From: Kineococcus radiotolerans SRS30216 = ATCC BAA-149
GTDB taxonomy: Bacteria; Actinomycetota; Actinomycetes; Actinomycetales; Kineococcaceae
Reading direction: 5' to 3'
Assembly (NCBI RefSeq): GCF_000017305.1
Contig: NC_009664.2
Coordinates: forward strand, 4,620,001 to 4,652,000
DNA: 32,000 nt
Shown: piece after piece, positions 473 through 18,130 of the stretch
How the letters are laid out: each line of letters begins with the position of its first letter
Position numbering within the stretch: the stretch's first letter is position 1
Translations under genes and position numbers: made by a program
Notes under the pieces: model-generated
Told to the model about the DNA's origin: nothing
Databases searched by the model: none
The model's input: the letters and a program-made list of their open reading frames with translations, nothing else

Positions 473-587
473 ATGTTGGTGGGGGCGCGATCGCACCGCC
501 CCTGCCACCCTGCAGGCGGGGACCGATGAGGTTAAACGACATGGGCAGTCTGCCCGTCACCACCACATCAACCCCCAGGAGTTCGAC

Positions 588-875
588 ATGATCATCGTCG
601 CTGGTCACCTCGGCGTCGCCCACGAGGAGCGCGAGGCGTACTTGGCTGGCTGCTGTGACGTGGTGCAGCGGGCTCGGGGTGCTGAGGGCTGCCTGGATTT
701 CACCATCGCAGCGGACCTCGTGGACGCCGGTCGGATCAACGTCTTCGAGCGTTGGGCGTCGCAGGCAGCCGTGGAGGCCTTCCGTGGCAGCGGTCCGAGC
801 GAGGAGCAGGGCGCGGCGATCCGGTCGGCCTCGGTGGCCGAGTACGACGTGTCCAGGGCACGCTTCTTGACGTGA
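588..875 (+). CDS. ABM-domain (antibiotic biosynthesis monooxygenase-like) protein
   Basis: ATG at 588 follows AGGAG at 577-581. About 95 aa. The segment INVFERWASQAAVEAFRGS is typical of small ABM/ferredoxin-fold proteins. Confidence 0.7.
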   Translation: MIIVAGHLGVAHEEREAYLAGCCDVVQRARGAEGCLDFTIAADLVDAGRINVFERWASQAAVEAFRGSGPSEEQGAAIRSASVAEYDVSRARFLT

Positions 876-892
876 CGGCGTGCGCGTGGCCC

Positions 893-960
893 ACGCGGGC
901 ATCGGCGAGACCGTGACGTCCCGGGCGGCGGCGAAAGCGCGCACAACGCGGGATGACCGG
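893..960 (+). repeat. Cassette-boundary repeat 2 (subtype B)
   Basis: Left box gagaccgtgacgtc at 907-920. Right part gcgcgcacaacgcGGGATGACCgg, core at 950-958. Confidence 0.8.
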
Positions 961-1029
961 ACATTCCCCGTGCTGGTCCAGGCGCCGTTTCCCCAGCCGG
1001 AGGACGGCTGCCACGGTGGAGGGGTAAGC

Positions 1030-1701
1030 ATGCACAGCGAGGACTCCTTCCGATCCCGGCCTTTGAACGGCCTCCCGCTGCCGGCCTCGACCGCGGCCGC
1101 CGTGGAGTCGTTGCTGCCTCCGCGCGGGCGTCCTACCCGAGGTCCGGGCGAGCGGGGCCGGCTGGGGCACTTCGAGCCGATCCCGGAAGAAGCCGCAGCT
1201 GAGTGGCTGGGCTTCGCCCCGCCCACCTTGCCCAGCCTGAGCGGGTCCGGGTTCCGTCGGCACTTCGCACGCCAAGGTGGGCGCGACCTCGTCGCGCGGG
1301 CGGACCTGACTCGTGGGGAGAGTGCCGCGGTCTACGTCTTCTACTTGCCGGCGGGCTCGGCGTGGCGGGAGGAGACGAGGTTCGTCGAAGCACGCCGGGA
1401 GGGTCTGACGTTCTTGTGGCTGCGGGCGGGGTACGGGGTGCCCTGGCCTGAGGAGGAAGGAGGACCGGTGGGAGTGGAGGAGACCGCGACCATTGGTCGT
1501 GACCCTGCCAGTGGTGACTTCCTCACGCTGACGGTGGGCAGCACCCGGGTCGGGGTCCAGTACCAGCGAGGGGTGACTCGCCTGGCGTGGTCGTACCGTT
1601 CCCAGGACGCCGACTTCAACGTCACGGTGATGAGTGGGCGCTCACCGCGGGCGTCGGTGGAGATGCTGGTGAGCGACCGCGGCGCGCTCTACCTGGGCTG
1701 A
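1030..1701 (+). CDS. Hypothetical protein (duplicated cassette, copy A)
   Basis: ATG at 1030 follows GGAGG at about 1017-1021. GC3-rich. A near-identical paralog lies at 12298-12969. No family recognised. Confidence 0.6.
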   Translation: MHSEDSFRSRPLNGLPLPASTAAAVESLLPPRGRPTRGPGERGRLGHFEPIPEEAAAEWLGFAPPTLPSLSGSGFRRHFARQGGRDLVARADLTRGESAAVYVFYLPAGSAWREETRFVEARREGLTFLWLRAGYGVPWPEEEGGPVGVEETATIGRDPASGDFLTLTVGSTRVGVQYQRGVTRLAWSYRSQDADFNVTVMSGRSPRASVEMLVSDRGALYLG

Positions 1702-1725
1702 GACATGCTCCCTGCGTGAGGAGCT

Positions 1726-1774
1726 GTCGCATCACCGGTCACCGGAACCCGCCCAAATTGCGGGATGACCGTGA
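1726..1774 (+). repeat. Cassette-boundary repeat 3 (subtype C-like)
   Basis: Sequence gtcgcatcaccggtcaccggaacccgcccaaattgcGGGATGACCgtga, core at 1762-1770. Identical apart from 1 nt to repeat 15. Confidence 0.8.
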
Positions 1775-1819
1775 ACTAGCTCGACGAGGTCCAACTCCTC
1801 CTGCACGCGGCATGATGCG

Positions 1820-2272
1820 GTGATGGCGACGACGTCGACCGAGCGAGCACGGCGTGGTTCCCGCTACCGCGGGGAGCGGCTGCTGTGTGCGCTGGCGGTG
1901 CTGAGTCTGTCGGTGGCGGCCTGGCAGGTGTGGGTGAGCTGGTGGGCCGAGGATGCCCAGGCGCCGGCCGCGGCGGGGTGGTTGTACCTCGGTGCGGGCC
2001 TGACGTTGGCGGCGGCTGTGGTGCTCGGCAGTGTCCGTCTGGGGGTCCCGCTGCCGGTGGTGGTGGCGACGGTGGTGGTGTGCGCCACCGCGGCGTGGAC
2101 GCTGAAGGACACCGGAGGCCCGTTGTGGATGGTGGGGGTGCTCACCGTGGGCGTCGTCGCGGTGATGATCACTGGGCTGATCGGGACGCTGGTGGTGCTG
2201 TTGCGGGCCCGGGCTAACCTGCGGCGCGAGGTCCATGCACCCCCTTCCAAAGCACCGCGTGAGCGGGGCTGA
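1820..2272 (+). CDS. Integral membrane protein (about 4 hydrophobic segments)
   Basis: GTG at 1820 or ATG at 1823. Hydrophobic stretches include LCALAVLSLSVAAW and VVVATVVVCATAAW. GC3-rich. Confidence 0.6.
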   Translation: MMATTSTERARRGSRYRGERLLCALAVLSLSVAAWQVWVSWWAEDAQAPAAAGWLYLGAGLTLAAAVVLGSVRLGVPLPVVVATVVVCATAAWTLKDTGGPLWMVGVLTVGVVAVMITGLIGTLVVLLRARANLRREVHAPPSKAPRERG

Positions 2273-2314
2273 AGGCGCTACCGGGAGGCCCTTTGCAGAA
2301 AGCGCCGTCGCGGA

Positions 2315-2378
2315 CTTCGGCAGGACCACGACGTGGTCAGGCCAGTTGAGGCCGCCCGTATCGCGGGATGACCGTGCG
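2315..2378 (+). repeat. Cassette-boundary repeat 4 (subtype C)
   Basis: Sequence cttcggcaggaccacgacgtgg...gaggccgcccgtatcgcGGGATGACCgtgcg, core at 2365-2373. Confidence 0.8.
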
Positions 2379-2426
2379 TTCCCCGCGTCGGGAACGGATG
2401 CTCCGGCTGCTGGGGCTGCCGCTGCC

Positions 2427-3038
2427 TCAGCGCCGCTGCGCTGCCTCCTCCTCCTGCGGAGTCAGCAGCCACCGCGCGAAGCAGCCGCCATCCACTTCGG
2501 TGTACCAGCGAGCGGTGACCTGGAAGGTGGTGGCCGGCGCCACGGGTAGCCGTAGCCCGGCCGGAGCGTGGGCTGCTTCGGCACCGGTGACCGGGTGCGG
2601 CTTCAGCGTGGGGAACGGGCCTGGCGCCGAGTCGATGATCGGGCCGCTGTGCTCCCCGGTCCCGTCCAGCGCGGCGTTGTAGAGCACCAGCTCTCCGGTG
2701 CAGACGGTGAAAGTGCCCCCGGACTCGTCGTCGTCATCGAGGGGATGCTCCAGAGCGGCCTGCAGCACCGCCCCGTAGTCCTCGCCGGAGGCCTGCACGA
2801 TGCGGATGTGCTGCTGGTCGCAGAAGACCTCCAGCCAGCTCTCGTCGTTGACGGCGCCGTCGGGGGCGATGAGCCCGGCGCTGCCTTCTCCCACGGGGGT
2901 GCTCGTCACGCTCTGGCCCAGGTCGCAGAGGGGCTCGTAGTGGTCGTGGCTGAACCCGGCCCAGGAGGCCAGGTGGGGGGCGTCGAGGGCGAGGTAGATC
3001 TCGCCGTCGCTCCAGAGGCGACCCACGTGCGTCCACAT
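2427..3038 (-). CDS. Immunity-protein-like hypothetical (Imm21-like by recall)
   Basis: ATG at 3038 gives 203 aa, MWTHVGRLWSDGEIYLALDAPHLASWAGF... This is only the 3' third of the 546-aa track ORF; the rest is Arg/Pro-rich shadow sequence. The family call is from memory only. Confidence 0.55.
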   Translation of the reverse strand: MWTHVGRLWSDGEIYLALDAPHLASWAGFSHDHYEPLCDLGQSVTSTPVGEGSAGLIAPDGAVNDESWLEVFCDQQHIRIVQASGEDYGAVLQAALEHPLDDDDESGGTFTVCTGELVLYNAALDGTGEHSGPIIDSAPGPFPTLKPHPVTGAEAAHAPAGLRLPVAPATTFQVTARWYTEVDGGCFARWLLTPQEEEAAQRR

Positions 3039-3204
3039 CGGCTTCGCTCCCTTCGTCGAGGTGCTAGTCGCACCGGCTGCTGCGAACCCAGCCGCCACCC
3101 CAGCACGGCAGCCGGTGTTTGCATGATCTCGCACCTCGATCGACGTGAGGGCGCATGCGCGACCGGTCGTGAGACAGCGAGAGGGCGGCCACTCGTGATC
3201 ACAC

Positions 3205-3257
3205 CTGGATCGCGGGATGACCGTGCGCCCGCGGACCGCGGGATGAACGTGAGGTCG
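3205..3257 (+). repeat. Cassette-boundary repeat 5 (doublet core)
   Basis: Sequence ggatcgcGGGATGACCgtgcgcccgcggaccgcGGGATGAACgtgaggtcg, cores at 3214-3222 and 3240-3248, 26 bp apart. Confidence 0.8.
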
Positions 3258-3296
3258 TAGATGCCGGAATGAGGAGTTGATCGCTAGCGTGCGGGC

Positions 3297-3923
3297 ATGG
3301 ACCGTCGCCGCCGGTTGCTGACTGCCGCTCTGGCCGGTGTGGGCTACGGGGTCACCACCTCGGCGTTGAACGCGTTGTCCTCCCCGGACGGTGAGCTGGC
3401 CGGCACATGGTTGCAGTCCGGGCTGCGGGTGCTCAGCACGATGACGGGAGCTGGGTGGGCGTGGGCGGCGTTGGCCGTTGCCGCCGGCCGGTTCGTGAGG
3501 AGTCGGCGCTGGGGCGCTGCTGCGGGCGCGCTGGCCTTGGTGGCAGCCACGACGGTCTACTACGCGCTGGACAGCGTGCTGCGGGAGGAGCCCGTCGTGG
3601 ACTCCGACATCTGGTTCTGGAGCGCGGGTGCTGCGCTGCTGGGTCCGCCGCTGGGGGTCATCGGTGCCTACCTCGGGCGCCCCGGTGTTCTGGGGTTGCT
3701 GGCCGCGTTGACGGTTCCGGTGGGAGCCGGGGTGCAGGTGCTGGTGCTGCCGCAGGGTGTGGGCGGGGTGCAGGACGCACCCGAGGCAGTCTGGGCGCGG
3801 TGGATCGTGGCGGGGGCGGCTGTGGTCGCCGTCATCGTGGTGGTGCGTCGATGGTGGGCCATCCGAGGCGGGCGGGGCGGGCGGGATGCGGAGCTTGACG
3901 GGGCGGTCTCCTCGCCGCGGTGA
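3297..3923 (+). CDS. Integral membrane protein
   Basis: ATG at 3297. Several hydrophobic helices. GC3-rich. No family recognised. Confidence 0.6.
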   Translation: MDRRRRLLTAALAGVGYGVTTSALNALSSPDGELAGTWLQSGLRVLSTMTGAGWAWAALAVAAGRFVRSRRWGAAAGALALVAATTVYYALDSVLREEPVVDSDIWFWSAGAALLGPPLGVIGAYLGRPGVLGLLAALTVPVGAGVQVLVLPQGVGGVQDAPEAVWARWIVAGAAVVAVIVVVRRWWAIRGGRGGRDAELDGAVSSPR

Positions 3924-3952
3924 GCGCTCGTCGGTGTGCTCCTGCTCGGGCT

Positions 3953-4003
3953 GGCCCGTGGTCACAGCTGGCCGTGGCCGCGTCCGTATCGCGGGATGAC
4001 CGG
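3953..4003 (+). repeat. Cassette-boundary repeat 6 (subtype C)
   Basis: Sequence ...gccgcgtccgtatcgcGGGATGACCgg, core at 3993-4001. Confidence 0.8.
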
Positions 4004-4105
4004 GTGGTCGGCGCTGAGGCTCTGCTCCTTCCGTGGTGCTGAAGTTCGGCGAGCATGCGTTGGCCACGCCGGTTCAGAGGACGACCACCTGTCAGGGTGG
4101 TGGTC

Positions 4106-4363
4106 ATGGAGGCGGCGACGCTGTGTCGGGTGTGCGGGTGGAGCTTGGATGAGCCGGGGTGGGTCGACGGTCTCCCGCAGTACGTGATCTGCGACTGCTG
4201 CGGTGCGGAGTGTGGAGTGGATGAGCACTCCGCTGAAGCGGCACGGGGGTATCGGGCTGGGTGGGCGGCGCGGGGGTATCCGTGGTGGGACAGGGGGCAT
4301 CAGCCGGTGGGCTGGTCGTTCACCGAGCAGCAGCGTGAACTCATCCCCGCCGCCTATCGCTGA
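4106..4363 (+). CDS. Small Cys-rich (zinc-ribbon-like) protein
   Basis: ATG at 4106 (MEAATLCRVCGW...CDCCGAECG) gives CxxC plus a CxCCxxxC cluster. The start could instead be 4055. Confidence 0.5.
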   Translation: MEAATLCRVCGWSLDEPGWVDGLPQYVICDCCGAECGVDEHSAEAARGYRAGWAARGYPWWDRGHQPVGWSFTEQQRELIPAAYR

Positions 4364-4387
4364 GCCCTCTACATGAGGCGTGACGCC

Positions 4388-4441
4388 GGCCCCAGCGCGG
4401 GATGACCGTGCGCCTGCACCACGCGGGATGACCGTGACGTC
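4388..4441 (+). repeat. Cassette-boundary repeat 7 (doublet core)
   Basis: Sequence cagcgcGGGATGACCgtgcgcctgcaccacgcGGGATGACCgtgacgtc, cores at 4399-4407 and 4425-4433, 26 bp apart. Confidence 0.85.
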
Positions 4442-4519
4442 CTCCGCAGACTGAGTGCGGCTGTGATGCAACCGTGGGGCGCTGCCGCGGCGTACCAGGT
4501 GGTGAGGGGGTGATGGCCG

Positions 4520-5191
4520 GTGGGCGCGGACAGCGACACATCGTTCGACGACTTTGCCGTCGCGGCGATCCCGCGGCTGCGGCGGGTCGCCCACGCCTGG
4601 TGCCATGACTGGCACCACAGCGACGACGTCGTGCAGGACACCCTGGAACGCGTCTACGCTGCGTGGCCGCGGGTGCGCCGCAACGGGCAGGAGTACGCCT
4701 ACGCCCGCGCCACACTGGTGCACCGGCTGATCTCGGAGAACCGCCGCGCCTGGCGCCGCCACGAGACCACCGTGGACGAGCAAGGGCTCAGCGATGCTGC
4801 CGATGCTCATCCGGTCGCCGATAGCGCCGAGCAGAGCGCTGCGCGCCTGGACACCACCGACCTGCTGGCCCGCCTACCGCTGCGCCAACGCGCGGTCGCG
4901 GTGCTGCGCTTCGTGGAGGAGCTGCCGGTGACGCAGGTGGCCGAGCTGCTCGGGTGCTCAGAGGGCACCGTCAAGAGTCAGGCCCACCACGCCCGTACCG
5001 CTCTGCGCGCCCTGGGTCTTAGCGCGACGAGCGCGCCGGTTACACCGGCTGCGTCGTCCACGGTGTTGTCGCCCACGTCGGTCACGTCGCCCACGTCGGT
5101 CACGTCGCCCACGTCGCCCCCGTCGCCCACGTCGGCCGCCACCCCTGCTGACAGCTCACGGCCAGGCCCCGCCCGGAAAGGACGATCATGA
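4520..5191 (+). CDS. ECF / SigE-family RNA polymerase sigma-70 factor
   Basis: GTG at 4520 follows GAGGGGG. Region 2 (DDVVQDTLERVY) and region 4 (LPLRQRAVAVLRFVEELPVTQVAELLGCSEGTVKSQ) motifs are present. The tail is Ser/Pro/Thr-rich and repetitive. Confidence 0.8.
   Translation: MGADSDTSFDDFAVAAIPRLRRVAHAWCHDWHHSDDVVQDTLERVYAAWPRVRRNGQEYAYARATLVHRLISENRRAWRRHETTVDEQGLSDAADAHPVADSAEQSAARLDTTDLLARLPLRQRAVAVLRFVEELPVTQVAELLGCSEGTVKSQAHHARTALRALGLSATSAPVTPAASSTVLSPTSVTSPTSVTSPTSPPSPTSAATPADSSRPGPARKGRS
5068..5137 (+). repeat. In-frame 18-bp and 9-bp tandem repeat in the sigma-factor tail
   Basis: gtcgcccacgtcggtcac occurs twice, followed by 9-bp gtcgcccac-like units. It encodes SPTSVT SPTSVT SPTSPPSPTS. 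Confidence 0.7.
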
Positions 5192-5856
5192 TCGAGCAGT
5201 CTGAGGACCAGCCCGGCGACGTCGAGGTGGAGGCGCGGCTACGCCGGGACGTGCAGATGCGACCTGCTCCGCCGTTCGCCGCGGACCTGCAGGCCGTGAA
5301 GCGGCGGGGTCTGCGCCGGCGCCGGCGCCGGCAGCTCCTGCCCGCGGTCGTCGTGCTGGTGATCCTGGGCGCCGGGGCCACAGCAGTCAGCACGGGAATC
5401 CTGCCCGGCATGCAGCGGCAGGGAACGGTCACGGCCGTACCGGCCCAGGAGGCAGAAGGCGATGCTGCGGGCGCTGCAGGCATCCCGGCGTGGTGCCAGG
5501 GCGGGAGCATCAGCTACGACTACGACGGCACCGGTCCGGCTAGCCCAGAGCTGGCGGTGCAGTACCTCATCGACCTCACCACCGCTCAGGACGAGCACCT
5601 GGAGCAGCAGCCCGGGTCGGCGCAGGTCGACGACGCGCTGGCGAAAAACTCGGCCGTCGTGACGGCCTTGCAGGCGGTGAAGGAGCAGGCCACGCAAATG
5701 GGCGTGGACCGTGTCCGGCAGGACGGTTCCGTCGTTGCCCGTGATGGGAGCGGTGAGGTCATCGCGCGAGCTGAACTCGCGGAGGTCCAGCCAGGTCAGT
5801 GGAACGTCGTCACCCTCAGCTTCTCGCCCCCGGCTGTGCCTGAGTGCGGTCGGTGA
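5188..5856 (+). CDS. Membrane-anchored protein coupled to the sigma factor (possible anti-sigma or partner)
   Basis: ATGA start/stop overlap at 5188-5191. An Arg-rich segment is followed by one TM helix (LLPAVVVLVILGAGATAV) and an extracytoplasmic domain. Confidence 0.6.
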   Translation: MIEQSEDQPGDVEVEARLRRDVQMRPAPPFAADLQAVKRRGLRRRRRRQLLPAVVVLVILGAGATAVSTGILPGMQRQGTVTAVPAQEAEGDAAGAAGIPAWCQGGSISYDYDGTGPASPELAVQYLIDLTTAQDEHLEQQPGSAQVDDALAKNSAVVTALQAVKEQATQMGVDRVRQDGSVVARDGSGEVIARAELAEVQPGQWNVVTLSFSPPAVPECGR

Positions 5857-5893
5857 CGGTGGAGGTGATCGCGCTCGGTTGCCAGCAGGTCGT

Positions 5894-5939
5894 CTTGACG
5901 ATCGTGATTGCGCACTGAGTGCGGGATGACCGTGACGTC
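5894..5939 (+). repeat. Cassette-boundary repeat 8 (subtype A, short)
   Basis: Sequence cttgacgatcgtgattgcgcactgagtgcGGGATGACCgtgacgtc, core at 5923-5931. Confidence 0.8.
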
Positions 5940-5991
5940 GGATGCGTCGAACAGCCCTCCCCACCTGCCGGTGCGCGAGCATCATGCGGAG

Positions 5992-6441
5992 ATGGACAGC
6001 ACAGTCGCTGAAGCCCCGCCGAGACGACCCGTCCCCCTCGTCACAGTGCTGGGCGTCGTGCTGCTGCTCTTCGCCATCGGCATGGGCGCATGGGTGGTGT
6101 GGCAGCTCAGCGCCGGGGGGCGAGCCCCAGCGGCGTTCCGGGAACGCTCCGCCGTACCGCAGTGCGCCTCGATCACCGTCCCCCAGGGCGGGCCCGCCTC
6201 GTCGGCTCTGCAGGACTGCCTGCTCGGCGCGGCCGCGCAGCGCGAGGGCGCGGAGGTCCTGGTGACGTCGCTGACCACGGAAGGGGACCCGATCAAGACG
6301 TACTACCGCGTGGTGCCCGGTGGTGAGGTGGAGATCTTCACCGACGCCACTGCGGACTCCTTCGGTTCGGGGAAGTGGAGCCACGACTGGTGCCCGGACG
6401 TCGCGGCGCTGGAGAGCGGGAAGGGCTGCCGGCCTGCTTGA
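5992..6441 (+). CDS. Membrane-anchored hypothetical protein
   Basis: ATG at 5992 (MDSTVAEAPP...) precedes one TM helix (VTVLGVVLLLFAIGMGAWVVW). The upstream ATG at 5926 lies inside the repeat core, so the start is uncertain. Confidence 0.5.
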   Translation: MDSTVAEAPPRRPVPLVTVLGVVLLLFAIGMGAWVVWQLSAGGRAPAAFRERSAVPQCASITVPQGGPASSALQDCLLGAAAQREGAEVLVTSLTTEGDPIKTYYRVVPGGEVEIFTDATADSFGSGKWSHDWCPDVAALESGKGCRPA

Positions 6442-6468
6442 TCAGCGCCCACAACGTGGGATGACCGG
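6442..6468 (+). repeat. Cassette-boundary repeat 9 (subtype B, short)
   Basis: Sequence tcagcgcccacaacgtGGGATGACCgg, core at 6458-6466, 17 nt after the stop codon. Confidence 0.7.
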
Positions 6469-6532
6469 AAGGTTGTCGGCAACGGTGCGAAGACGCGCGG
6501 TTCAGGTCGTGCGGTTGTGCGAGGCTCCGACG

Positions 6533-7396
6533 ATGGCGAGCTTCCCCTGGTCACGTGAGTCGGTCGTTCGTGCTCTGGGGGAGCGGGTCCTCGTCGAGGG
6601 GGCGGTGACCCGTGGATTCACCGGCCTCGACGTCCGGCCGGCGCTGACAGGAGAGCCCCCACACTCTGACGCCGGCCATGACCACGTGGTCGTCGTCCTG
6701 CGGTGGCAGCAGGGCCCCAGTGTCTACGCCATCGCTATCCCCTTGCTCCCTGAGGGAGCCCACGGGCACGAGGAACTGCCGCCGGGTCTCAGCACGGGAC
6801 TGCCCATCACCTCGTTGCCGGAGTGGGTCGAGGAGGTAGCCCTGTGGCTGATGGAGGAGCTCGACACCGGACTGGTCCGGCGCGCCACCCGCACCCGGAT
6901 CGGTGACCTCACCTTCCTCACCACCAGTGGCGGGGCCGCCGACGTCCTGCCTCAGGGCTACTACGTCAGCACCCTTTACATCGGGCCCCATGGCGGTAAG
7001 GGCGAGCACCTCGCCGACGTCGGCCTCGACCTCAGCATCGCCCGGCGCATCCTGGACGGTGGCCGCCTGCTCACCTGGCTCCACGCCTACGTCAACAACA
7101 GCCGCGGCGAGCCCTTCGTCGGCCATGTCGTCGTAGCCCGTTCACCCGCTGACCCGGCCGGCAACGGAACGCAGTCAGCGCGGCTGGAGGTCCTGGAGGT
7201 CGTCCCCGGCACCCCGGACACGGTCGCTGCCGCGTTGGCCTACCACGCCGTCCGCGATGCCATCGAGAGCGGCGCGGAGACCGTCTCCAGCACTCTCGAC
7301 GATCCCGCCTTGAAGAAGGTCGGCTTCCGCCGTCACGGGAGCGGGTACCTGTCGTTGTCGTGGCGTGACGTCCAGATCCCTGACCTTCGCCGCTGA
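6533..7396 (+). CDS. Hypothetical protein, possibly with a GNAT-like C-terminal region
   Basis: ATG at 6533 (MASFPWSRESV...). GC3-rich, 287 aa. The C-terminal segment LEVLEVVPG...AYHAVRDAIESGAETV...KKVGFRRHG weakly recalls an acetyltransferase fold. Confidence 0.55.
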   Translation: MASFPWSRESVVRALGERVLVEGAVTRGFTGLDVRPALTGEPPHSDAGHDHVVVVLRWQQGPSVYAIAIPLLPEGAHGHEELPPGLSTGLPITSLPEWVEEVALWLMEELDTGLVRRATRTRIGDLTFLTTSGGAADVLPQGYYVSTLYIGPHGGKGEHLADVGLDLSIARRILDGGRLLTWLHAYVNNSRGEPFVGHVVVARSPADPAGNGTQSARLEVLEVVPGTPDTVAAALAYHAVRDAIESGAETVSSTLDDPALKKVGFRRHGSGYLSLSWRDVQIPDLRR

Positions 7397-7418
7397 CCTC
7401 CGCCGCAGCGGCGCTTGA

Positions 7419-7489
7419 GCTCGCTCATCGGCGTGTCAGGACGTCCGACGCCGGCCCCAATCGCGCGCTGAGCGCGGGATGACCGTGCG
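7419..7489 (+). repeat. Cassette-boundary repeat 10 (subtype A, full length)
   Basis: Sequence gctcgctcatcggcgtgtcaggacgtccgacgccggccccaatcgcgcgctgagcgcGGGATGACCgtgcg, core at 7476-7484. Confidence 0.85.
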
Positions 7490-7724
7490 TTGGCGCGATG
7501 ACGCCTTCCGCGGGTGGCGATGGCTCCTCCTGTTCCGCTGCTGCCGCCGCGAAGGAGGCTGCTGTGCCGCCAACCGGGCGATGTAGGGAAGCGTCTGCGC
7601 CTCGCGAGGGTACGGTCCTGATGCCCAGCAGCAGGTGAAACCCTTCACGGTGATGCGTCGATGCGGTCAGCACCGGCTGATGCCGCCTCGTGATCGTCAC
7701 GCAACGGAAGGTCATACCCCAGAC

Positions 7725-8195
7725 ATGGATCGCATCAGGCGGCTACCGCGCGGGCCGGTCCTTGTGCGAGCTCTTGGGGTCGGGGTGGGCTGCCTGGTGG
7801 TCATGCTGATCAGCAACTATGTCACTGCGCGTCGAGACGTCGGCGGCGCCGACCTCGGGCTCTTCCTCATCCTCTGGACCGCTGTGGGCTGCCTCACCGC
7901 GGTGTGCGGAGCCTGGGACGGTCGTCGCAGCGCTCGGCGAGGCACACCTCGCGACCAGGGGCAGTGGACCTGGGGCGTTGCTGCGTTCTTGGGCACCCTC
8001 ATCGGGTCGTTGATGCACGCAGGCGACACCCTGCTCAGTGAGTCCATCGACCGGATGGACGCGTACACCGCCGCTGTCCTTCTCTTCGATTTCGTGTTGT
8101 TTCCGATCGGACTCGCCCCCTTCCTCGGCGTGGTGGCTATCGCGCCGTTCACGGTGGTCTACGACCGCGTCGCGCGCCGGGGCGTGCCGGGCTGA
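7725..8195 (+). CDS. Integral membrane protein
   Basis: ATG at 7725 follows GGAAGG. About 4 hydrophobic segments. The start could be as early as 7635. Confidence 0.55.
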   Translation: MDRIRRLPRGPVLVRALGVGVGCLVVMLISNYVTARRDVGGADLGLFLILWTAVGCLTAVCGAWDGRRSARRGTPRDQGQWTWGVAAFLGTLIGSLMHAGDTLLSESIDRMDAYTAAVLLFDFVLFPIGLAPFLGVVAIAPFTVVYDRVARRGVPG

Positions 8196-8235
8196 GGTGT
8201 GGTGCGGCGGTCTTGATCGCCGCGCTCAGCGTGCA

Positions 8236-8363
8236 TTCGGTCATCGGCAGGACCGCGCTGTCGCCGGCAGCTCAGGACAGCGCGCACAACGCGGGATGAC
8301 CGTGCGCCCGCTCACCGTGGGATGACCGTGACGTCACGTGCGGCGCGCTATGACCGTGACGTC
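8236..8363 (+). repeat. Cassette-boundary repeat 11 (subtype B with triple core)
   Basis: Sequence ttcggtcatcggcaggaccgcgctgtcgccggcagctcaggacagcgcgcacaacgcGGGATGACCgtgcgcccgctcaccgtGGGATGACCgtgacgtcacgtgcggcgcgctATGACCgtgacgtc. Cores at 8293, 8319 and 8350. Confidence 0.85.
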
Positions 8364-8372
8364 CCGCTGTGG

Positions 8373-10067
8373 TCACTGCTGAGTATGGTCTCCTGCCGAC
8401 AACCGACGGTGTACGTCCTCCAGGACGGTCCTCGGCTTCTCGTGCCCCAGGGACAAGGCGTCGACGGCTCCCATCACCGCCTCGGCGGGGTCGGGCAGCG
8501 CGGACTGCTGCAGCGCGTCCAGGGCGACCACCTCAGGGGCGTAGGGCTCGTGGACCTCCTCGTCGTCCCAGCTGATGTAGGAGCCGCTGTATTCGACCTG
8601 CTCCTCGTCCTCTTCGTCCCCCTCGTCGGCGGGGAACACCTTCGCCAGCACCTGGTCGGGGTCATTCCACAGCGGCGGCAGCGGCCCGCCGGCGGCGGCA
8701 GCGTGCAAGGCATCCTCGACCCAGTCCCGGCCGGCCAGCCCGGCGAGCGTGCACGCCTGACGGGCCGCCCACACCGCCACCGCGCGCTGCTCGCCGGCCG
8801 GCATGACCGCGAGGGCTTCGGCCAGTTCGCGGTGCCGTCGGCCCACGGACGACGCGCGGCCCCCGACGGCCAGCAACCGTGCGGAGGGCAGCTGCTCACC
8901 GTCCTGCACCCCCCATTCCCGGCACAGGTCGAAGTACTCCTCGGGGTCCATCCCCTCGGGCACCTTCTCGAGCGGGTCCGGTTCGGTGAACGGTGGCCGG
9001 TGGTCCGCGACGTGCCCGACGCCGAACCGCTCGGTCAGTTCTCGCCGCAGACGTGTCAGTTCCTCACGGACCTGCGCCAGGAAGGCGTCCGCGTGCTCCT
9101 GCCCGATCGCCTCGTGAACCTGCTTCAGGGTCGAGACGACCGCGTCCAGGGGGTCGGTGCTGGCCGCCTCCACGATGCTGGACACCGCGTACGCGGTCCG
9201 GCTGCGGGGGTAGCCGTTGACCGCGGACGCCTCACCGTCCGGATCCGGGAGGGAGTCGTCCAGGCGGGCGTACAGGGCGTCGGGGTCGTGGAACAGCGCC
9301 GGTAGCGACCGGTCCTCGCGCAGGCTATGCAGCACCGCGGCGATCCAGTCCACGCGGTCGACGCCGGTCCGGGTGCAGGCCCACTGCGCGGCCCAGTACG
9401 CCACGGCCCGCTGCACGCCGGGTTCGGCCGCTGCCAGGTCCTCAGCCAGGTCGCGGTCCAGCTCGACCAGCCAGGGCGCGTCGAACACGTCCAGCAGCCT
9501 CTGGCTCGGCAGCAGGGTCTCACCCCACGTCGCGGACGTTCGCGCGGCGCGGGCGAAGGCGGGGTCCTGCATCCGGTGGCGATAGCGGGCGGTTTCACTG
9601 CCGACGCGCACGATCGCGTCGGGGGCGGGGGGAGCGGGCCACAGGACCAGTTCGTAGTGGTCCACCAGCGGTTCGTCTGCCATGACGACGTCGGCGTCGC
9701 GGCCGGCGTCGATGCCCTGGGCGCTGAAGCGGGCGCGGTAGCTGGGCTGGTCCAGGTACAGGTCGCACACGGCGTCGGATAGGCACCCGGCCAGGACCGC
9801 CTCGGGCCACTGGGGGGTGAACGTCGTCTCGACGAGGTCCTCCCACTCCGGCCCGACCGGCGGTGGTTCGTCGCACAGCAGGACCCGGAGGCCGACGTCA
9901 CCGGTGTGGACACCGACCAGCAAGGTCAGGTGGCCCAGCAGCTGCCCGCCGGCCAGGCCGTTGACCTGACCGGCGAAAGCGGCTTCGTAGTCGTCGGGGA
10001 CGTCCCCGGCGGACAGGTACGCCTGGAAGTAGGAGACGGCCATCCGCCCCTCGTAGACCAACTGCAC
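8373..10067 (-). CDS. Large hypothetical protein with an internally duplicated helical module
   Basis: 564-aa GC3-rich ORF. Two similar modules contain LPSxRLL...QRAVAxWAAxxACT...DW...LH...LPxLxxDPD. The N-terminal 160 aa are a separate domain. No confident family. Confidence 0.7.
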   Translation of the reverse strand: MQLVYEGRMAVSYFQAYLSAGDVPDDYEAAFAGQVNGLAGGQLLGHLTLLVGVHTGDVGLRVLLCDEPPPVGPEWEDLVETTFTPQWPEAVLAGCLSDAVCDLYLDQPSYRARFSAQGIDAGRDADVVMADEPLVDHYELVLWPAPPAPDAIVRVGSETARYRHRMQDPAFARAARTSATWGETLLPSQRLLDVFDAPWLVELDRDLAEDLAAAEPGVQRAVAYWAAQWACTRTGVDRVDWIAAVLHSLREDRSLPALFHDPDALYARLDDSLPDPDGEASAVNGYPRSRTAYAVSSIVEAASTDPLDAVVSTLKQVHEAIGQEHADAFLAQVREELTRLRRELTERFGVGHVADHRPPFTEPDPLEKVPEGMDPEEYFDLCREWGVQDGEQLPSARLLAVGGRASSVGRRHRELAEALAVMPAGEQRAVAVWAARQACTLAGLAGRDWVEDALHAAAAGGPLPPLWNDPDQVLAKVFPADEGDEEDEEQVEYSGSYISWDDEEVHEPYAPEVVALDALQQSALPDPAEAVMGAVDALSLGHEKPRTVLEDVHRRLSAGDHTQQ

Positions 10068-10273
10068 GGAGAACCCCTCAGGACGACGACGCTCGGTGAT
10101 GACAGCCCGTACCGCCGGCGGAGTCGACGCCGGCTCGGGCGGTGCAGATGTTCCACCATGCCGTGGGGTGACGCGCCAGCGGATCGCCGAGCACCCCCGA
10201 AGGGAGCAGCGAGCCGGTGCTGGAAGCTCCGAACGGTGGTCGCAGCGTGATCGGCGCAGGCACTTGTTGCGCG

Positions 10274-10372
10274 CTCTTCGCCGAGATCGTGACGTCGCGG
10301 GACGCCGGCGACAGCGCGCACAACGCGGGATGACCGTGAGGTCGCGCGCAGCGCGGGCTGACCGTGACGTCG
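10274..10372 (+). repeat. Cassette-boundary repeat 12 (subtype B, doublet core)
   Basis: Left box gagatcgtgacgtc. Then gcgcgcacaacgcGGGATGACCgtgaggtcgcgcgcagcgcGGGCTGACCgtgacgtcg, cores at 10327 and 10355. Confidence 0.85.
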
Positions 10373-10461
10373 AGTCCTTGCCGTCACGGCCGCGGGCCGC
10401 AAGTCACCGTGGATCGACGACGCGGTGGACTTTTTCGCCCTGTCTCTGACTGACTGGTTCT

Positions 10462-11406
10462 GTGATCGACGAGGCCGACCCGGTGCCTGCGCAGCTGGGG
10501 GCTCTGGGCTACCCCGACGCGCACTGGCTAGCCGCGGGCATGGAGGCTGACGTGTACGCCCTCGACGAGCAGACCGTCGCCCGGCTACCTCGGGAGGCGG
10601 CCGCGGCTGGTGCTGGACCCGAGGAGCCCGTGGAGCGACTGCTTGAGCAGCTGAACGGGTGCTGGCTGCCGTTCGCTGTCCCTGCCCTGCTGGGCCGCCT
10701 CACCCTGCCCGATGGCCGCTGCCTGCTGCGTCAGCCGCGCCTGCGTGGCCGCAGCATCGGCGACTTCTACGACCCGGCCAGCGGGCACCTGGACCCCCGC
10801 GCCGAGCAGGCATTGATCGAGCTGCTGAGCGCGCTGCGCACCATCCCGCACCCGCAGCGGATCGAGATGCCTGACCTGCCGATCCTGGGCGACTCGACGG
10901 TGACCACGGCTCAGCCGTGGGCGGCGGCCTTGCAACGGCTGCTGGAGGACCGCACCCGTCGCTTTGGGGGCCTGCTGCAGGCGCACGTTGATCGCCTGGA
11001 CGACTTGGTGGAGTCCTGCGACGCCTTCTTGGTCAGTCGCCGTGACGTGGCGGTCACGTTGCAGCACGGAGACATCTGCCCGGAGAACGTGCTGGTCGAC
11101 GACGACTGCCGGCTGACCGCGGTCCTGGACTGGGGATTCCTGACCATGCTGGCCGACCCGGTGCTGGAGATCGCACTGACGGCGGGGTTCTTCGACATGT
11201 ACGGCCCGCACGCCTTGCGCACGGATCGGCGGCTGAGCGATCTGTTCGTCGAGGCGTTCGACGTCGAGCGCGCGGACATCCTGCGGTTCAAGGCGGTGTA
11301 CGCCCTCATCGGCGCGAACGCTTACAGCGGCACCGCCGACGGGCACTTCCAGTGGTGCGCTGCGGTGCTGCGGCGGCCCGACGTCCGCTCCGCCGTCCTG
11401 CTGTAG
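10462..11406 (+). CDS. Aminoglycoside/choline-kinase-type phosphotransferase (APH family)
   Basis: GTG at 10462. Catalytic loop LQHGDICPENVLVD and DWGF (Brenner and DFG-like motifs). Confidence 0.75.
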   Translation: MIDEADPVPAQLGALGYPDAHWLAAGMEADVYALDEQTVARLPREAAAAGAGPEEPVERLLEQLNGCWLPFAVPALLGRLTLPDGRCLLRQPRLRGRSIGDFYDPASGHLDPRAEQALIELLSALRTIPHPQRIEMPDLPILGDSTVTTAQPWAAALQRLLEDRTRRFGGLLQAHVDRLDDLVESCDAFLVSRRDVAVTLQHGDICPENVLVDDDCRLTAVLDWGFLTMLADPVLEIALTAGFFDMYGPHALRTDRRLSDLFVEAFDVERADILRFKAVYALIGANAYSGTADGHFQWCAAVLRRPDVRSAVLL

Positions 11407-11427
11407 GCCGCCAACCCGGCATCAGCT

Positions 11428-11545
11428 GGTCGCTCGGTCATCGGCATTATGCGGGTGATCGTCGCGCTCAGCTTGACCTCGCTCATCGGCAGGACCGCGA
11501 TGTCGCTAGGGCAGTCGGGACCGCCCGTATCGCGGGATGACCGGA
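11428..11545 (+). repeat. Cassette-boundary repeat 13 (compact degenerate unit plus full subtype C unit)
   Basis: First unit gtcgctcggtcatcggcattatgcgggtgatcgtcgcg. Second unit cctcgctcatcggcaggaccgcgatgtcgctagggcagtcgggaccgcccgtatcgcGGGATGACCgg, core at 11534-11542. Confidence 0.8.
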
Positions 11546-11555
11546 TGCTCCCCGC

Positions 11556-12110
11556 TCAGCGGGATCGCTCGTGCATGAGCTGGCCGTCTTGGCGCAGGAG
11601 CGGGAGCCAGGTGCTGAGGGAGCGGCCGAGGCTGTCGATCAACCGCGGGCCGATGACGCACAGGCTCTTCTCCCAGGGGTGCCCGAAGGTGCCTTCGGTG
11701 AGGTCGGGGGTGAAGAAGGCGCAGTAGTCACCGTCGGGGTAGACCGGCACCTGCCAGTGGGTGGGGTCGGTGAGGGCCTGTTGGTGGGGTCGCAGGATGT
11801 GGGTGGGGTGCTGCCAGTCCAGGACGAGGAGCTCGTCGACGTCGTGCAGGGCCCAGAGGAAGCAGCGCAGGGCTTCGGCGTTGATGGCGTCGTAGGCCGC
11901 TGCTCGCTGCGCGCCGTCGTTGATGGCGGTGAGGTCGAAGGTCAGGGAGGGGGTGGGCTCGTGGATGGCCGGCCAGTCCTCGGGGTGGGGTGAGGCGCGG
12001 AAGTGGTAGCGGGCGTGGAAGGCGGCCCATGCCTGCTGGTGGTCGGTGTGGGTCAGTTCGGTCCAGGCTTGCTGGGTGGGGGCGGGTGGCTCTGCTGGTA
12101 GGTCGGACAC
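11556..12110 (-). CDS. DUF2716-like hypothetical protein
   Basis: 184 aa. The segment WQVPVYPDGDYCAFFTPDLTEGTFGHPWEKSLCVIGPRL matches the remembered DUF2716 signature. Confidence 0.65.
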   Translation of the reverse strand: MSDLPAEPPAPTQQAWTELTHTDHQQAWAAFHARYHFRASPHPEDWPAIHEPTPSLTFDLTAINDGAQRAAAYDAINAEALRCFLWALHDVDELLVLDWQHPTHILRPHQQALTDPTHWQVPVYPDGDYCAFFTPDLTEGTFGHPWEKSLCVIGPRLIDSLGRSLSTWLPLLRQDGQLMHERSR

Positions 12111-12164
12111 CGCTGCAGGTTAGTGATGTGTCGTTTCAGGACCCCTGCGGTGATCTTTCGCTTT

Positions 12165-12228
12165 CAGCGAGACCATGACGTCGCGAGCCGCACGCGACAA
12201 CGCACAACGCACAACGCGGGATGACCGG
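12165..12228 (+). repeat. Cassette-boundary repeat 14 (subtype B)
   Basis: Left box gagaccatgacgtc. Then cgcgacaacgcacaacgcacaacgcGGGATGACCgg, core at 12218-12226. The gcacaac unit is repeated. Confidence 0.8.
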
Positions 12229-12297
12229 ACATTCCCCGTGCTGGTCCAGGCGCCGCTTCCCCAGCCGGAGGACGGCTGCCACGGTGGAGGGGTGAGC

Positions 12298-12969
12298 GTG
12301 CACAGCGAGGACTCCTTCCGATCCCGGCCTTTGAACGGCCTCCCGCTGCCGGCCTCGACCGCGGCCGCCGTGGAGTCGTTGCTGTCTCCGCGCGGGCGTC
12401 CTACCCGAGGTCCGGGCGAGCGGGGCCGGCTGGGGCACTTCGAGCCGATCCCGGAAGAAGCCGCAGCTGAGTGGCTGGGCTTCGCCCCGCCCACCTTGCC
12501 CAGCCTGAGCGGGTCCGGGTTCCGTCGGCACTTCGCACGCCAAGGTGGGCGCGACCTCGTCGCGCGGGCGGACCTGACTCGTGGCGAGAGTGCCGCGGTC
12601 TACGTCTTCTACTTGCCGGCGGGCTCGGCGTGGCGGGAGGAGACGAGGTTCGCCGAAGCACGCCGGGAGGGTCTGACGTTCTTGTGGCTGCGGGCGGGGT
12701 ACGGGGTGCCCTGGCCTGAGGAGGAAGGAGGACCGGTGGGAGTGGAGGAGACCGCGACCATTGGTCGTGACCCTGCCAGTGGTGACTTCCTCACGCTGAC
12801 GGTGGGCAGCACCCGGGTCGGGGTCCAGTACCAGCGAGGGGTGACTCGCCTGGCGTGGTCGTACCGTTCCCAGGACGCCGACTTCAACGTCACGGTGATG
12901 AGTGGGCGCTCACCGCGGGCGTCGGTGGAGATGCTGGTGAGCGACCGCGGCGCGCTCTACCTGGGCTGA
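12298..12969 (+). CDS. Hypothetical protein (duplicated cassette, copy B)
   Basis: Paralog of 1030-1701 with a GTG start where copy A has ATG. Only 3 other amino-acid differences appear in the ORF-track translations. Confidence 0.6.
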   Translation: MHSEDSFRSRPLNGLPLPASTAAAVESLLSPRGRPTRGPGERGRLGHFEPIPEEAAAEWLGFAPPTLPSLSGSGFRRHFARQGGRDLVARADLTRGESAAVYVFYLPAGSAWREETRFAEARREGLTFLWLRAGYGVPWPEEEGGPVGVEETATIGRDPASGDFLTLTVGSTRVGVQYQRGVTRLAWSYRSQDADFNVTVMSGRSPRASVEMLVSDRGALYLG

Positions 12970-12993
12970 GACATGCTCCCTGCGTGAGGAGCT

Positions 12994-13042
12994 GTCGCAT
13001 CACCGGTCACCGGAACCCGCCCGAATTGCGGGATGACCGTGA
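12994..13042 (+). repeat. Cassette-boundary repeat 15 (subtype C-like, twin of repeat 3)
   Basis: Sequence gtcgcatcaccggtcaccggaacccgcccgaattgcGGGATGACCgtga, core at 13030-13038. Confidence 0.8.
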
Positions 13043-13082
13043 GGTCCGGCCCGGCTGCACCGGCGTGAGAGAGCATCGAGAC

Positions 13083-13301
13083 ATGGCGGCTTCAGGCCCA
13101 GGAGGACAGGCTCCGCGCAAGCTGCGCGCGGGGGACCGAGTACGGCTGAGAACGGTGGACGAGGAGCGTCGCCTGAACGGTCTGACGACGGACGCGGTGG
13201 GCGTGATCGACATGGAGCTGGCTGTCGGCGGCTGCCTCGTGGGCTTCCCCGATGCTGGCTTGAACGTCTTCGGTCAAGACGAGCTCGACCTCGTCGAGTG
13301 A
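13083..13301 (+). CDS. Small hypothetical protein (72 aa)
   Basis: ATG at 13083. GC3-rich. It fills its cassette exactly. No family recognised. Confidence 0.45.
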   Translation: MAASGPGGQAPRKLRAGDRVRLRTVDEERRLNGLTTDAVGVIDMELAVGGCLVGFPDAGLNVFGQDELDLVE

Positions 13302-13311
13302 TGCATCTCGC

Positions 13312-13387
13312 CGACCTCGCTCGTCGGCATGTCAGGCCATCCGAGGCCGGTCACGATCGCGCACTGAGCGCGGGATGACCGTGAAGT
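13312..13387 (+). repeat. Cassette-boundary repeat 16 (subtype A, full length)
   Basis: Sequence cgacctcgctcgtcggcatgtcaggccatccgaggccggtcacgatcgcgcactgagcgcGGGATGACCgtgaagt, core at 13372-13380. Confidence 0.85.
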
Positions 13388-13437
13388 TGACTCCGGATCC
13401 TCGGTGCCGTGGGACAGCGCAGCTGCCAATGGGGCCC

Positions 13438-15254: not shown

Positions 15255-15283
15255 AGCGCTAACGTAACAGTCCTCATGTGAAA

Positions 15284-18100: not shown

Positions 18101-18130
18101 GAGGCGCCAGGTGAGCAGTCATCGAGCCAG

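What the first reader, a model, noticed from the sequence alone, without database searches (positions are those of the whole stretch)
940..13042. A whole cassette is duplicated 11.27 kb apart, with identity starting and stopping inside the repeat cores
Segments 940-1774 and 12208-13042 (835 bp each, constant offset 11268) differ at about 7 positions by eye. One difference turns the ATG start into GTG.

Identity begins a few bases before the upstream core. It ends 4 nt after the downstream core: gggatgaccgtga is followed by actagc in one copy and ggtccg in the other.

The downstream boundary repeat (repeats 3 and 15) is identical in both copies. The upstream repeats (2 and 14) differ in their left and central parts.

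So the mobile or duplicated unit is [core]-gene-[next repeat up to its core]. In integron cassettes the attC likewise travels at the 3' end of its gene. This is the most direct evidence in the sequence that the repeats are recombination junctions.
Basis: seen in the sequence. Interest (0 to 1): 0.8.

Follow-up and report, generated by a model that had tools for sequence, protein, structure and literature searches.

The report
Integron-like gene cassette array in Kineococcus
An 835-bp one-gene unit is copied 11.3 kb apart, cut exactly at a conserved 12-base motif that separates about 27 gene cassettes in Kineococcus radiotolerans; related species show the same pattern, which points to an undescribed integron-like cassette system in a phylum reported to lack complete integrons.

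Summary
Segments 940-1774 and 12208-13042 are identical except at 7 positions, and their flanks are unrelated. Identity starts 8 nt before the motif GCGGGATGACCG and stops 3 nt after the next copy of it.

The window is Kineococcus radiotolerans SRS30216 chromosome. It holds 30 significant sites, all on the + strand, from 444 to 23936. They delimit about 27 cassettes of 292-2034 bp carrying unrelated accessory genes on either strand.

Co-oriented arrays with the same core occur in at least 14 other Kineococcus species. Cassette-sized homology blocks shared between those arrays end at cores: 41 of 141 ends lie within 25 nt, against 7.3 expected. The duplicated gene family is core-flanked in four other contigs. 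The two halves of the site vary almost independently, as expected for a recombination junction.

The site is not an attC. It shows no excess folding, no GTTRRRY motif and no dyad symmetry. I found no recombinase in the window or beside other arrays.

The best reading is a cassette system that works like an integron but shares none of its parts. The enzyme is unknown. Homologous recombination at a conserved repeat remains a live rival.

The parts
940..1774 (+). Copy A of the duplicated segment. The cassette proper runs core-to-core, 948-1771.
   Evidence: 7 mismatches to copy B over 835 bp, with sharp loss of identity on both sides.
12208..13042 (+). Copy B of the duplicated segment. The cassette proper runs core-to-core, 12216-13039.
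1030..1701 (+). Gene of copy A: 223 aa, ATG start, hypothetical protein ABS03852 / WP_012087931. No Pfam domain. The family is known only from Kineococcus and a few metagenome contigs.
   Evidence: The AlphaFold model is unusable (pLDDT 40).
12292..12969 (+). Gene of copy B: 225 aa from a GTG start (WP_238985790), or 223 aa from the GTG at 12298 (Krad_2358, ABS03838).
948..959 (+). Core GCGGGATGACCG at the left junction of copy A. The sequence to its left belongs to the preceding ABM cassette.
1760..1771 (+). Core at the right junction of copy A. The about 60 nt to its left travel with the cassette.
12216..12227 (+). Core at the left junction of copy B.
13028..13039 (+). Core at the right junction of copy B.
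444..23936 (+). Array of about 27 cassettes separated by a roughly 35-nt site, cgCgCaCaAc-GCGGGATGACCG-TGArGTCg. Cores start at 460, 948, 1760, 2363, 3212, 3991, 4397, 5921, 6456, 7474, 8291, 10325, 11532, 12216, 13028, 13370, 15346, 16444, about 17331, 18195, 19438, 19962, 20684, 21871, 22531, 22823, about 23421 and 23915. The array continues to the left of the window.
   Evidence: A profile built only from sites of other species finds 30 sites with E <= 0.0013, all on +, and none beyond 23936. Conservation profile, cassette table. Contig L122 shows one more site 341 nt left of position 1.
909..922 (+). Upstream box GACCGTGACGTC of the long form of the site. It is a direct copy of the box that overlaps the core.
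   Evidence: partial profile hit; 32 of 112 sites have such a box against 12.5 expected, peaking 37-40 nt upstream of the core.
8291..8356 (+). Example of stacked cores 26-28 nt apart, with a conserved filler TGCGCCCGCnCACC. Others are at 3212-3249, 4397-4434, 10325-10364, 16444-16505 and 21871-21902.
   Evidence: The same 26-nt unit occurs in other species (L056, L057).
23408..23936 (+). Last cassette of the array, bounded by two degenerate sites: GCGG-ATGATCG at about 23421 and GCGCGATGACCG at 23915.
24000..32000 (.). Flank without sites, not part of the array. It is plasmid-like or integrated-element-like: RepA_C 28410-29252, HU-like 26496-27158 (-), sigma-70 region 4 protein 30557-30817.

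Best explanation
The 835-bp duplicate is one mobile gene cassette present twice in a large array of cassettes in the Kineococcus radiotolerans chromosome. A third copy, Krad_2283, lies about 75 genes away.

Each cassette is one gene (sometimes two) plus the left part of a roughly 35-bp site at its right-hand end. Neighbouring cassettes are joined inside the invariant 12-bp core GCGGGATGACCG.

The most likely mechanism, which is inferred and not shown, has three steps:
- A site-specific recombinase, encoded elsewhere in the genome, recognises the core and its flanks.
- It excises a cassette as a circle by recombining two co-oriented cores.
- It re-inserts the circle at any other core.

This would produce arrays of co-oriented sites, duplicated cassettes in new contexts, and arrays that are mosaics across species.

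Functionally this resembles an integron cassette array, or more precisely a CALIN (a cluster of attC sites lacking an integron integrase). The site is recognised as sequence rather than as a folded attC hairpin, genes sit on either strand, and a genome carries several arrays.
For: Shown:
1. The breakpoints of the duplicate fall at cores and its flanks are unrelated.
2. The window holds 30 significant sites, all on one strand, in every kind of intergenic gap (convergent, divergent, tandem). None lies in the adjacent 8 kb.
3. The same core forms co-oriented arrays in 29 loci from 14 other Kineococcus species. All 91 non-Kineococcus hits of the scan are single matches.
4. Cassette-sized blocks (250-960 bp) are shared between arrays of different species. 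Of their 141 ends, 41 lie within 25 nt of a core, against 7.3 expected and a maximum of 18 in 1000 randomisations.
5. Locus L101 is a mosaic whose consecutive cassettes have their closest relatives in six different arrays.
6. Junction alignments place the switch inside the 12-nt core. A core variant at position 10 travels with the right-hand cassette.
7. The duplicated gene family is core-flanked in L129, L130, L106 and L107. In L131 it is flanked on both sides by a variant core, GCGGCATGAGCG.
8. The left and right halves of the site are almost independent (mutual-information z = 2.3), while each half has strong internal subfamily structure (z = 8.6 and 10.5). This fits composite junctions.
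9. The 12 core bases are invariant in 112 sites across species by selection of exact matches, but the flanks also show conservation from -15 to +20, which implies recognition by a protein.
10. Cassette contents are typical accessory functions: APH, aminoglycoside acetyltransferase, GNAT, GrpB, NUDIX, PIN/HTH, an ECF sigma factor with a co-transcribed unannotated ORF, and MFS.
Against: - No recombinase was found in the window or next to array ends in other genomes. Those ends abut ordinary genes such as dnaX, MCP, GGDEF-EAL and amylase.
- The site has no dyad symmetry of the kind seen in simple tyrosine-recombinase core sites, and no excess secondary structure. No known enzyme class is implied.
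- Crossovers confined to a 12-20-nt identical stretch are also what rare homologous recombination between repeats would give.
- Excision circles and cassette movement have not been observed.
- The left end of the array and the rest of the K. radiotolerans genome could not be read with these tools.
Confidence: 0.6

Rival explanations
1. The repeat is a genus-specific intergenic element with some other primary role, such as a binding site for a regulator or nucleoid protein, or a REP-like element. Cassette boundaries fall at it only because ordinary RecA-mediated or microhomology-mediated recombination uses the 12-35-nt identical stretches as portable homology. No dedicated recombinase exists.
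For: - No recombinase was found near any array.
- Arrays and single sites are scattered among housekeeping genes on several contigs per genome.
- Breakpoints cannot be resolved more finely than the stretch that is identical in all copies.
Against: - Strict local co-orientation regardless of gene direction, and presence in divergent promoter gaps as well as 3' ends, do not fit a transcript-level or regulatory element.
- The site has no hairpin and no inverted pairs as in REP/BIME elements.
- Homologous recombination on 12-20 nt is very inefficient, yet cassette shuffling is pervasive across species.
- A single cassette copied 11 kb away needs an excised intermediate, not unequal crossing-over.
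Confidence: 0.25
2. The repeat itself is the mobile element: a small non-autonomous transposon (MITE-like) that has inserted between genes. The genes are not mobile, and the duplicate arose secondarily.
For: - There are many copies with subfamilies, including a long form of about 70-115 nt.
- Stacked copies occur 20-28 nt apart.
Against: - There are no terminal inverted repeats and no dyad symmetry.
- The left and right halves of the site assort almost independently, so it is not inherited as a unit.
- Homology between arrays covers the genes and stops at the core, not the reverse.
- All copies within an array are co-oriented.
Confidence: 0.07
3. An ordinary segmental duplication, a gene-conversion tract, or an assembly artefact that has nothing to do with the repeats.
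For: - The two copies are 99.2% identical.
- A short-read contig (L122) joins the flank of copy A to the sequence of copy B, which shows that assemblers can mix the copies.
Against: - Homology does not extend into the neighbouring genes on either side.
- The copies differ at 7 positions and both are separate annotated proteins in the finished genome, together with a third paralogue.
- The same core-bounded pattern recurs in independent genomes.
Confidence: 0.03

Closest known systems
Sedentary chromosomal integrons and CALINs (clusters of attC sites lacking an integron integrase; Cury et al. 2016, PMC4889954)
   Same: - Long arrays of co-oriented recombination sites separate single accessory genes.
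- The site travels at the 3' (right) end of its cassette, and the crossover lies in a short conserved core at the very end of the site.
- Cassettes are duplicated and shuffled within and between genomes.
- Cassette sizes are mostly 0.3-2 kb.
- Cassette contents are similar: acetyltransferases, toxin-antitoxin-like genes, resistance-type enzymes and many unknowns.
- As with CALINs, no integrase lies beside the array.
   Different: - The site is unrelated to attC. It has no R''/L''-L'/R' imperfect palindrome, no GTTRRRY motif and no excess folding on either strand.
- It is conserved as primary sequence over about 35 nt, with an optional upstream direct-repeat box.
- About a third of the genes are on the opposite strand.
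- A genome carries several arrays, next to housekeeping genes.
- No IntI was found.
- The host phylum (Actinobacteria) was reported to lack complete integrons.
REP/BIME elements (REPINs mobilised by RAYT transposases)
   Same: Short, genus-specific intergenic repeats present in many copies, which can act as recombination substrates.
   Different: REPs are palindromic hairpins, often in inverted pairs, dispersed genome-wide, and they do not delimit shuffled gene cassettes. Here there is no hairpin signal, orientation is strictly uniform within an array, and homology blocks are cassette-bounded.
pdif / Xer-dependent modules of Acinetobacter plasmids (from my own knowledge)
   Same: Small gene modules bounded by short conserved recombination sites and found in different contexts, using a recombinase encoded elsewhere (host XerC/XerD).
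   Different: pdif sites are 28-bp dyad-like XerC-spacer-XerD sites that alternate in orientation around each module. The Kineococcus site shows no dyad symmetry, and all sites point the same way.

Membership tests
Integron (complete) | An intI gene (tyrosine recombinase with the IntI-specific insertion) next to the array, with attI and the Pc promoter | tested here: not met
   No recombinase domain was found in any window ORF with Pfam, PHROGs or NCBIfam. None was found at visible array ends in other Kineococcus loci, and no recurrent flanking protein family exists. Caveat: the left end of this array lies outside the window.
Integron / CALIN | attC sites: R''-L''...L'-R' imperfect inverted repeats that fold into a hairpin, with R' = GTTRRRY | tested here: not met
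   The consensus is cgCgCaCaAc-GCGGGATGACCG-TGArGTCg and contains no GTTRRRY. The folding z-score of 70-nt site segments is -0.34 (top strand) and -0.25 (bottom strand), against -0.10 for random segments (p = 0.26). There is no dyad symmetry. Only a weak 3-5-bp CCCGC/GCGGG hairpin is enriched: 31 of 120 sites against 13 expected.
Integron / CALIN | Cassette = gene plus site at its 3' end, with the crossover in a short core at the end of the site, and all sites co-oriented | tested here: met
   Junction alignments, the duplicate breakpoints, and 30 of 30 significant sites on the + strand.
Integron | Cassette genes mostly promoterless and oriented away from Pc | tested here: inconclusive
   By GC3-based and Pfam-based calls, 18 cassette genes are on + and 9 on -. 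The consensus promoter scan found nothing either way.
REP/BIME (REPIN-RAYT) | Palindromic hairpin units, commonly in inverted pairs, plus a RAYT (Y1 HUH) transposase in the genome | tested here: not met
   There is no excess folding and orientation is uniform. The presence of a RAYT gene elsewhere in the genome could not be tested.
Xer/pdif modules | 28-bp sites with two inverted 11-bp arms around a 6-bp spacer, alternating in orientation around modules | tested here: not met
   The best arm complementarity of the site profile is 0.46, against 0.29 expected from base composition. All sites are co-oriented.
MITE / small non-autonomous transposon | Terminal inverted repeats, target-site duplication, inheritance as a unit | tested here: not met
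   There is no dyad symmetry. The two halves of the site are nearly independent: mutual-information z = 2.3 across the core, against 8.6 and 10.5 within each half. Target-site duplications were not examined.
Ordinary segmental duplication | Homology extends into neighbouring genes, with breakpoints unrelated to the repeats | tested here: not met
   identity collapses at 939/940 and at 1774/1775, and the neighbouring genes differ.

The most novel reading that the evidence does not exclude
Kineococcus (Actinomycetota) carries a previously unrecognised cassette-capture system that evolved independently of integrons. In this reading a dedicated, still unidentified recombinase acts on a roughly 35-bp double-stranded sequence site, not a folded attC. 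It excises and inserts one- or two-gene cassettes at any copy of the core. This builds several arrays per chromosome and exchanges cassettes across the genus, and the core co-evolves with the enzyme in different lineages: GCGGGATGACCG in most species, a GCGssACGACC-like form in K. rhizosphaerae, and GCGGCATGAGCG in the L131 organism.
Probability: 0.5. Interest if true: 0.9.

Novelty: new variant of a known kind. Interest (0 to 1): 0.8.

Why it matters
Integrons are the only well-established system that stockpiles and shuffles single-gene cassettes. A survey of 2484 bacterial genomes found no complete integron in any Actinobacteria genome (PMC4889954).

A functionally equivalent array built on an unrelated site would show that cassette platforms evolved more than once. 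It would reveal a hidden route of gene exchange in a soil and desert genus known for radiation and desiccation resistance. It would also point to a new site-specific recombinase with a compact, sequence-defined 35-bp target.

The question can be tested directly:
- The site is defined.
- Three copies of one cassette exist in a culturable, sequenced strain.
- Lineage-specific core variants offer a handle for finding the enzyme by covariation.

Tried and rejected
- **Rfam and tRNA scans of the window:** nothing found.
- **Plasmid collection:** megablast of the window and a blastn of the site consensus gave no real match.
- **Viral contigs scanned for the site:** six single matches that, by eye, lie in unrelated lower-GC (56-68%) sequence without the upstream repeat part, so no phage attP lead.
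- **attC-like hairpin hypothesis:** rejected, because site segments fold no better than random segments. A first attempt timed out.
- **Small CCCGC/GCGGG hairpin:** only weakly enriched.
- **Dyad symmetry as in Xer or simple tyrosine-recombinase sites:** absent.
- **The core as a start codon (ATG ACC GTG...) or as coding sequence:** in copy A that frame stops after 24 codons, and the site lies in all kinds of intergenic gaps. Rejected from the sequence itself.
- **Search for the recombinase:** Pfam, PHROGs and NCBIfam on window ORFs, on 30 array-flanking ORFs and on 120 ORFs from other loci, plus all-against-all clustering. Nothing recurrent was found except cassette genes.
- **Two large unannotated ORFs (8373-10067 on the - strand, 6320-7396 on the + strand):** no PDB or NCBIfam relatives.
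- **Reading the rest of the K. radiotolerans chromosome:** The third copy (Krad_2283) and the left end of the array were therefore not seen.
- **Structure prediction of the duplicated protein:** pLDDT 40, so no fold search was run.
- **Literature:** no paper in the library mentions these repeats, the core sequence in this context, or the locus tags.
Full report
**1. The observation**

MAFFT alignment and a position-by-position comparison at offset 11268 confirm the duplication. Segments 940-1774 and 12208-13042 differ at exactly seven positions: 988, 1026, 1030, 1117, 1317, 1385 and 1755.
- Position 1030 turns ATG into GTG.
- Positions 1117 and 1385 are non-synonymous.
- Position 1317 is synonymous.

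Identity begins 8 nt before the core GCGGGATGACCG (948-959 / 12216-12227). It ends 3 nt after the next core (1760-1771 / 13028-13039). To the left, the two upstream repeats are only family-level similar (about 70%, with a 5-nt indel). To the right, the sequences are unrelated.

The neighbouring genes differ. An ABM monooxygenase (465-875, + strand) lies before copy A, and a DUF2716 gene (11556-12110, - strand) lies before copy B. This is therefore not a segmental duplication.

**2. Where the window comes from**

The two proteins match exactly ABS03852/WP_012087931 and Krad_2358/WP_238985790 of Kineococcus radiotolerans SRS30216, on its 4.76-Mb chromosome. A third paralogue, Krad_2283, differs from copy B by three residues and lies about 75 locus tags away.

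The family has no Pfam domain. Its homologues come only from Kineococcus and a few metagenome contigs. The AlphaFold model is too poor to use (pLDDT 40).

**3. The array**

The core has 47 matches with up to 2 mismatches, against 10.0 +/- 3.3 in shuffles. Every exact copy is on the + strand.

I built a profile HMM only from 86 sites of other species. It finds 30 sites with E <= 0.0013 in the window, all on +, between 444 and 23936. Four weaker sites are also on +. There is nothing on the - strand or beyond 23936.

The sites delimit about 27 cassettes of 292-2034 bp, plus six places where cores are stacked 20-28 nt apart. Identified contents are unrelated accessory genes:
- ABM monooxygenase and DUF6518
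- an ECF sigma factor with a downstream, start/stop-overlapping ORF that has no Pfam match, in the same cassette
- two APH-type kinases
- DUF2716, MFS, MOSC, a pentapeptide-repeat protein, GrpB, NUDIX and DMP19

Eighteen cassette genes are on + and nine on -.

Sites sit in tandem, convergent and divergent gaps alike. Examples are 10325 and 12216 (divergent) and 11532 (convergent). This argues against a terminator or other transcript-linked element. The scan found no terminator-like structure at the sites in 400-2500, and Rfam found nothing.

The last 8 kb of the window lack sites and look plasmid-like or integrated-element-like, with RepA_C and an HU-like protein.

**4. Anatomy of the site**

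Across 112 sites, conservation runs from about -15 to +20 around the core: cgCgCaCaAc-GCGGGATGACCG-TGArGTCg.

About a fifth of the sites carry a direct copy of the box GACCGYGAMGTC 37-40 nt upstream of the core. In all, 32 of 112 sites have such a box, against 12.5 expected.

Three tests argue against a folded or symmetrical site:
- The 70-nt site segments fold no better than random segments on either strand (z = -0.34 and -0.25 against -0.10; p = 0.26).
- Only a 3-5-bp CCCGC...GCGGG hairpin is mildly enriched.
- The profile has no dyad symmetry.

The left and right halves of the site each have strong subfamily structure (mutual-information z = 8.6 and 10.5). They are almost independent of each other (z = 2.3). 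This is what is expected if each site is a junction between the end of one cassette and the start of the next.

**5. Other genomes**

- 29 rows are Kineococcus, from 14 species, usually with several co-oriented cores per 8 kb and several loci per genome.
- The other 91 rows are single matches in unrelated taxa, consistent with chance.

All-against-all blastn of these loci shows many cassette-sized blocks (250-960 bp, 70-97% identity) shared between arrays of different species. Of their 141 internal ends, 41 lie within 25 nt of a core. The random expectation is 7.3, with a maximum of 18 in 1000 trials.

Locus L101 is a mosaic. Its consecutive cassettes have their closest relatives in six different arrays, including a 96.8% copy on another contig of the same genome.

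Junction alignments of five cassette pairs show homology starting at the core on the left and stopping right after the core on the right. A position-10 core variant is inherited with the right-hand cassette, so the switch lies inside the 12 nt.

The duplicated gene family itself is core-flanked in L129, L130, L106 and L107. In the more distant L131 it is flanked on both sides by a variant core, GCGGCATGAGCG. K. rhizosphaerae (L001) has decayed sites of the form GCGssACGACC.

Cassette contents in the other species include GrpB, TetR, GNAT, an aminoglycoside acetyltransferase, PIN/HTH proteins and methyltransferases.

**6. Mechanism**

*Shown:* the cores are the junctions at which cassettes are joined, duplicated and exchanged.

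*Inferred:* a trans-acting site-specific recombinase excises cassettes as circles between two co-oriented cores and inserts them at other cores.

*Not found:* the enzyme.
- No recombinase domain appears in the window.
- None appears at array ends elsewhere. Those ends abut genes such as dnaX, MCP, GGDEF-EAL and amylase.
- No protein family recurs beside the arrays.

Because breakpoints cannot be resolved below the invariant stretch, homologous recombination at a repeat conserved for another reason remains a real rival. I put it at about 0.25.

Four points argue against that rival:
- the strict co-orientation of the sites;
- the independence of the two half-sites;
- the conservation of a 35-nt asymmetric sequence across species, in otherwise unconserved spacers;
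- the dispersed single-cassette copy, which needs an excised intermediate.

**7. Comparison with known systems**

The array works like a chromosomal integron or CALIN, but it fails the defining tests for that family: it has no attC structure, no GTTRRRY core and no IntI. It also fails the tests for REP/BIME, pdif and MITE elements (see the membership table).

Cury et al. found no complete integron in any Actinobacteria genome. The K. radiotolerans genome paper does not mention these repeats. Full-text searches for the core sequence, the locus tags, and Kineococcus together with integron, cassette or repeat terms found nothing relevant.

I therefore rate this as a new variant of a known kind of system, namely cassette arrays. 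There is about a 50% chance that it is a mechanistically independent system.

**8. Limits**

- I could not read the K. radiotolerans chromosome outside the window, apart from 509 nt to the left via contig L122, which shows one more site.
- The third copy, the left end of the array and the genome-wide site count are therefore unknown.
- No experimental evidence for cassette movement exists.

Noticed in passing
L122 (Logan contig from run SRR999644), which equals window -508..987 joined to 12256..13199: This contig is identical to copy A's upstream flank through the core. It then carries all 7 copy-B variants and copy B's downstream flank, with zero mismatches. That is the product expected from a deletion of 11,268 bp between the cores at 948 and 12216. 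It could equally be an assembly chimera, because the third copy (Krad_2283) is B-like and would bias bubble popping towards B.
   Followed up: partly
window 3212-3249, 4397-4434, 8291-8356, 10325-10364, 16444-16505, 21871-21902; also L056:4667-4706 and L057:6505-6547: Cores are stacked 20-28 nt apart. A recurrent 26-nt unit, GCGGGATGACCG-TGCGCCCGCnCACC, is conserved across species, and its filler can form a 5-6-bp hairpin with the next core. These may be empty mini-cassettes or a double-site form.
   Followed up: partly
window 8214-8264 and 11456-11506; L114 around 2092 (- strand): Some sites have a longer conserved left part of about 115 nt. On the reverse strand this part reads as a short ORF start, M-(S/T)-E-(V/C)-(K/T)-L-S-A-(T/A)-I. 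No ORF of 60 aa or more follows, and its meaning is unknown.
   Followed up: no
window 24000-32000: A plasmid-like or integrated-element-like block abuts the distal end of the array. It contains a RepA_C protein (28410-29252), an HU-like protein (26496-27158, - strand), a small sigma-70 region 4 protein (30557-30817) and a PPC-domain protein (31042-31956). No integrase lies within the window.
   Followed up: partly
window 27363-27523: A tandem 12-nt repeat (GCCCGTGACCCA, about 10 copies) lies inside ORF 27328-28035. In that frame it would encode a four-residue repeat.
   Followed up: no
window 8373-10403 (- strand): This is the largest cassette gene: 564-676 aa, GC3 0.87. It has no Pfam, NCBIfam or PDB relative. 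Two internal segments resemble each other (...AVAYWAAQWACTRTG... and ...AVAVWAARQACTLAG...).
   Followed up: partly
L001 (K. rhizosphaerae) and L131 (metagenome contig): There are lineage-specific variants of the core: a GCGssACGACC-like, partly decayed form in L001, and GCGGCATGAGCG on both sides of the homologous cassette in L131. This suggests that the site co-evolves with whatever recognises it.
   Followed up: partly
window 10462-11406 (+) and 18240-19238 (-): Two different APH-family phosphotransferase cassettes sit in the same array on opposite strands. Other species' arrays carry an APH(6)-like kinase and an aminoglycoside 3-N-acetyltransferase.
   Followed up: no
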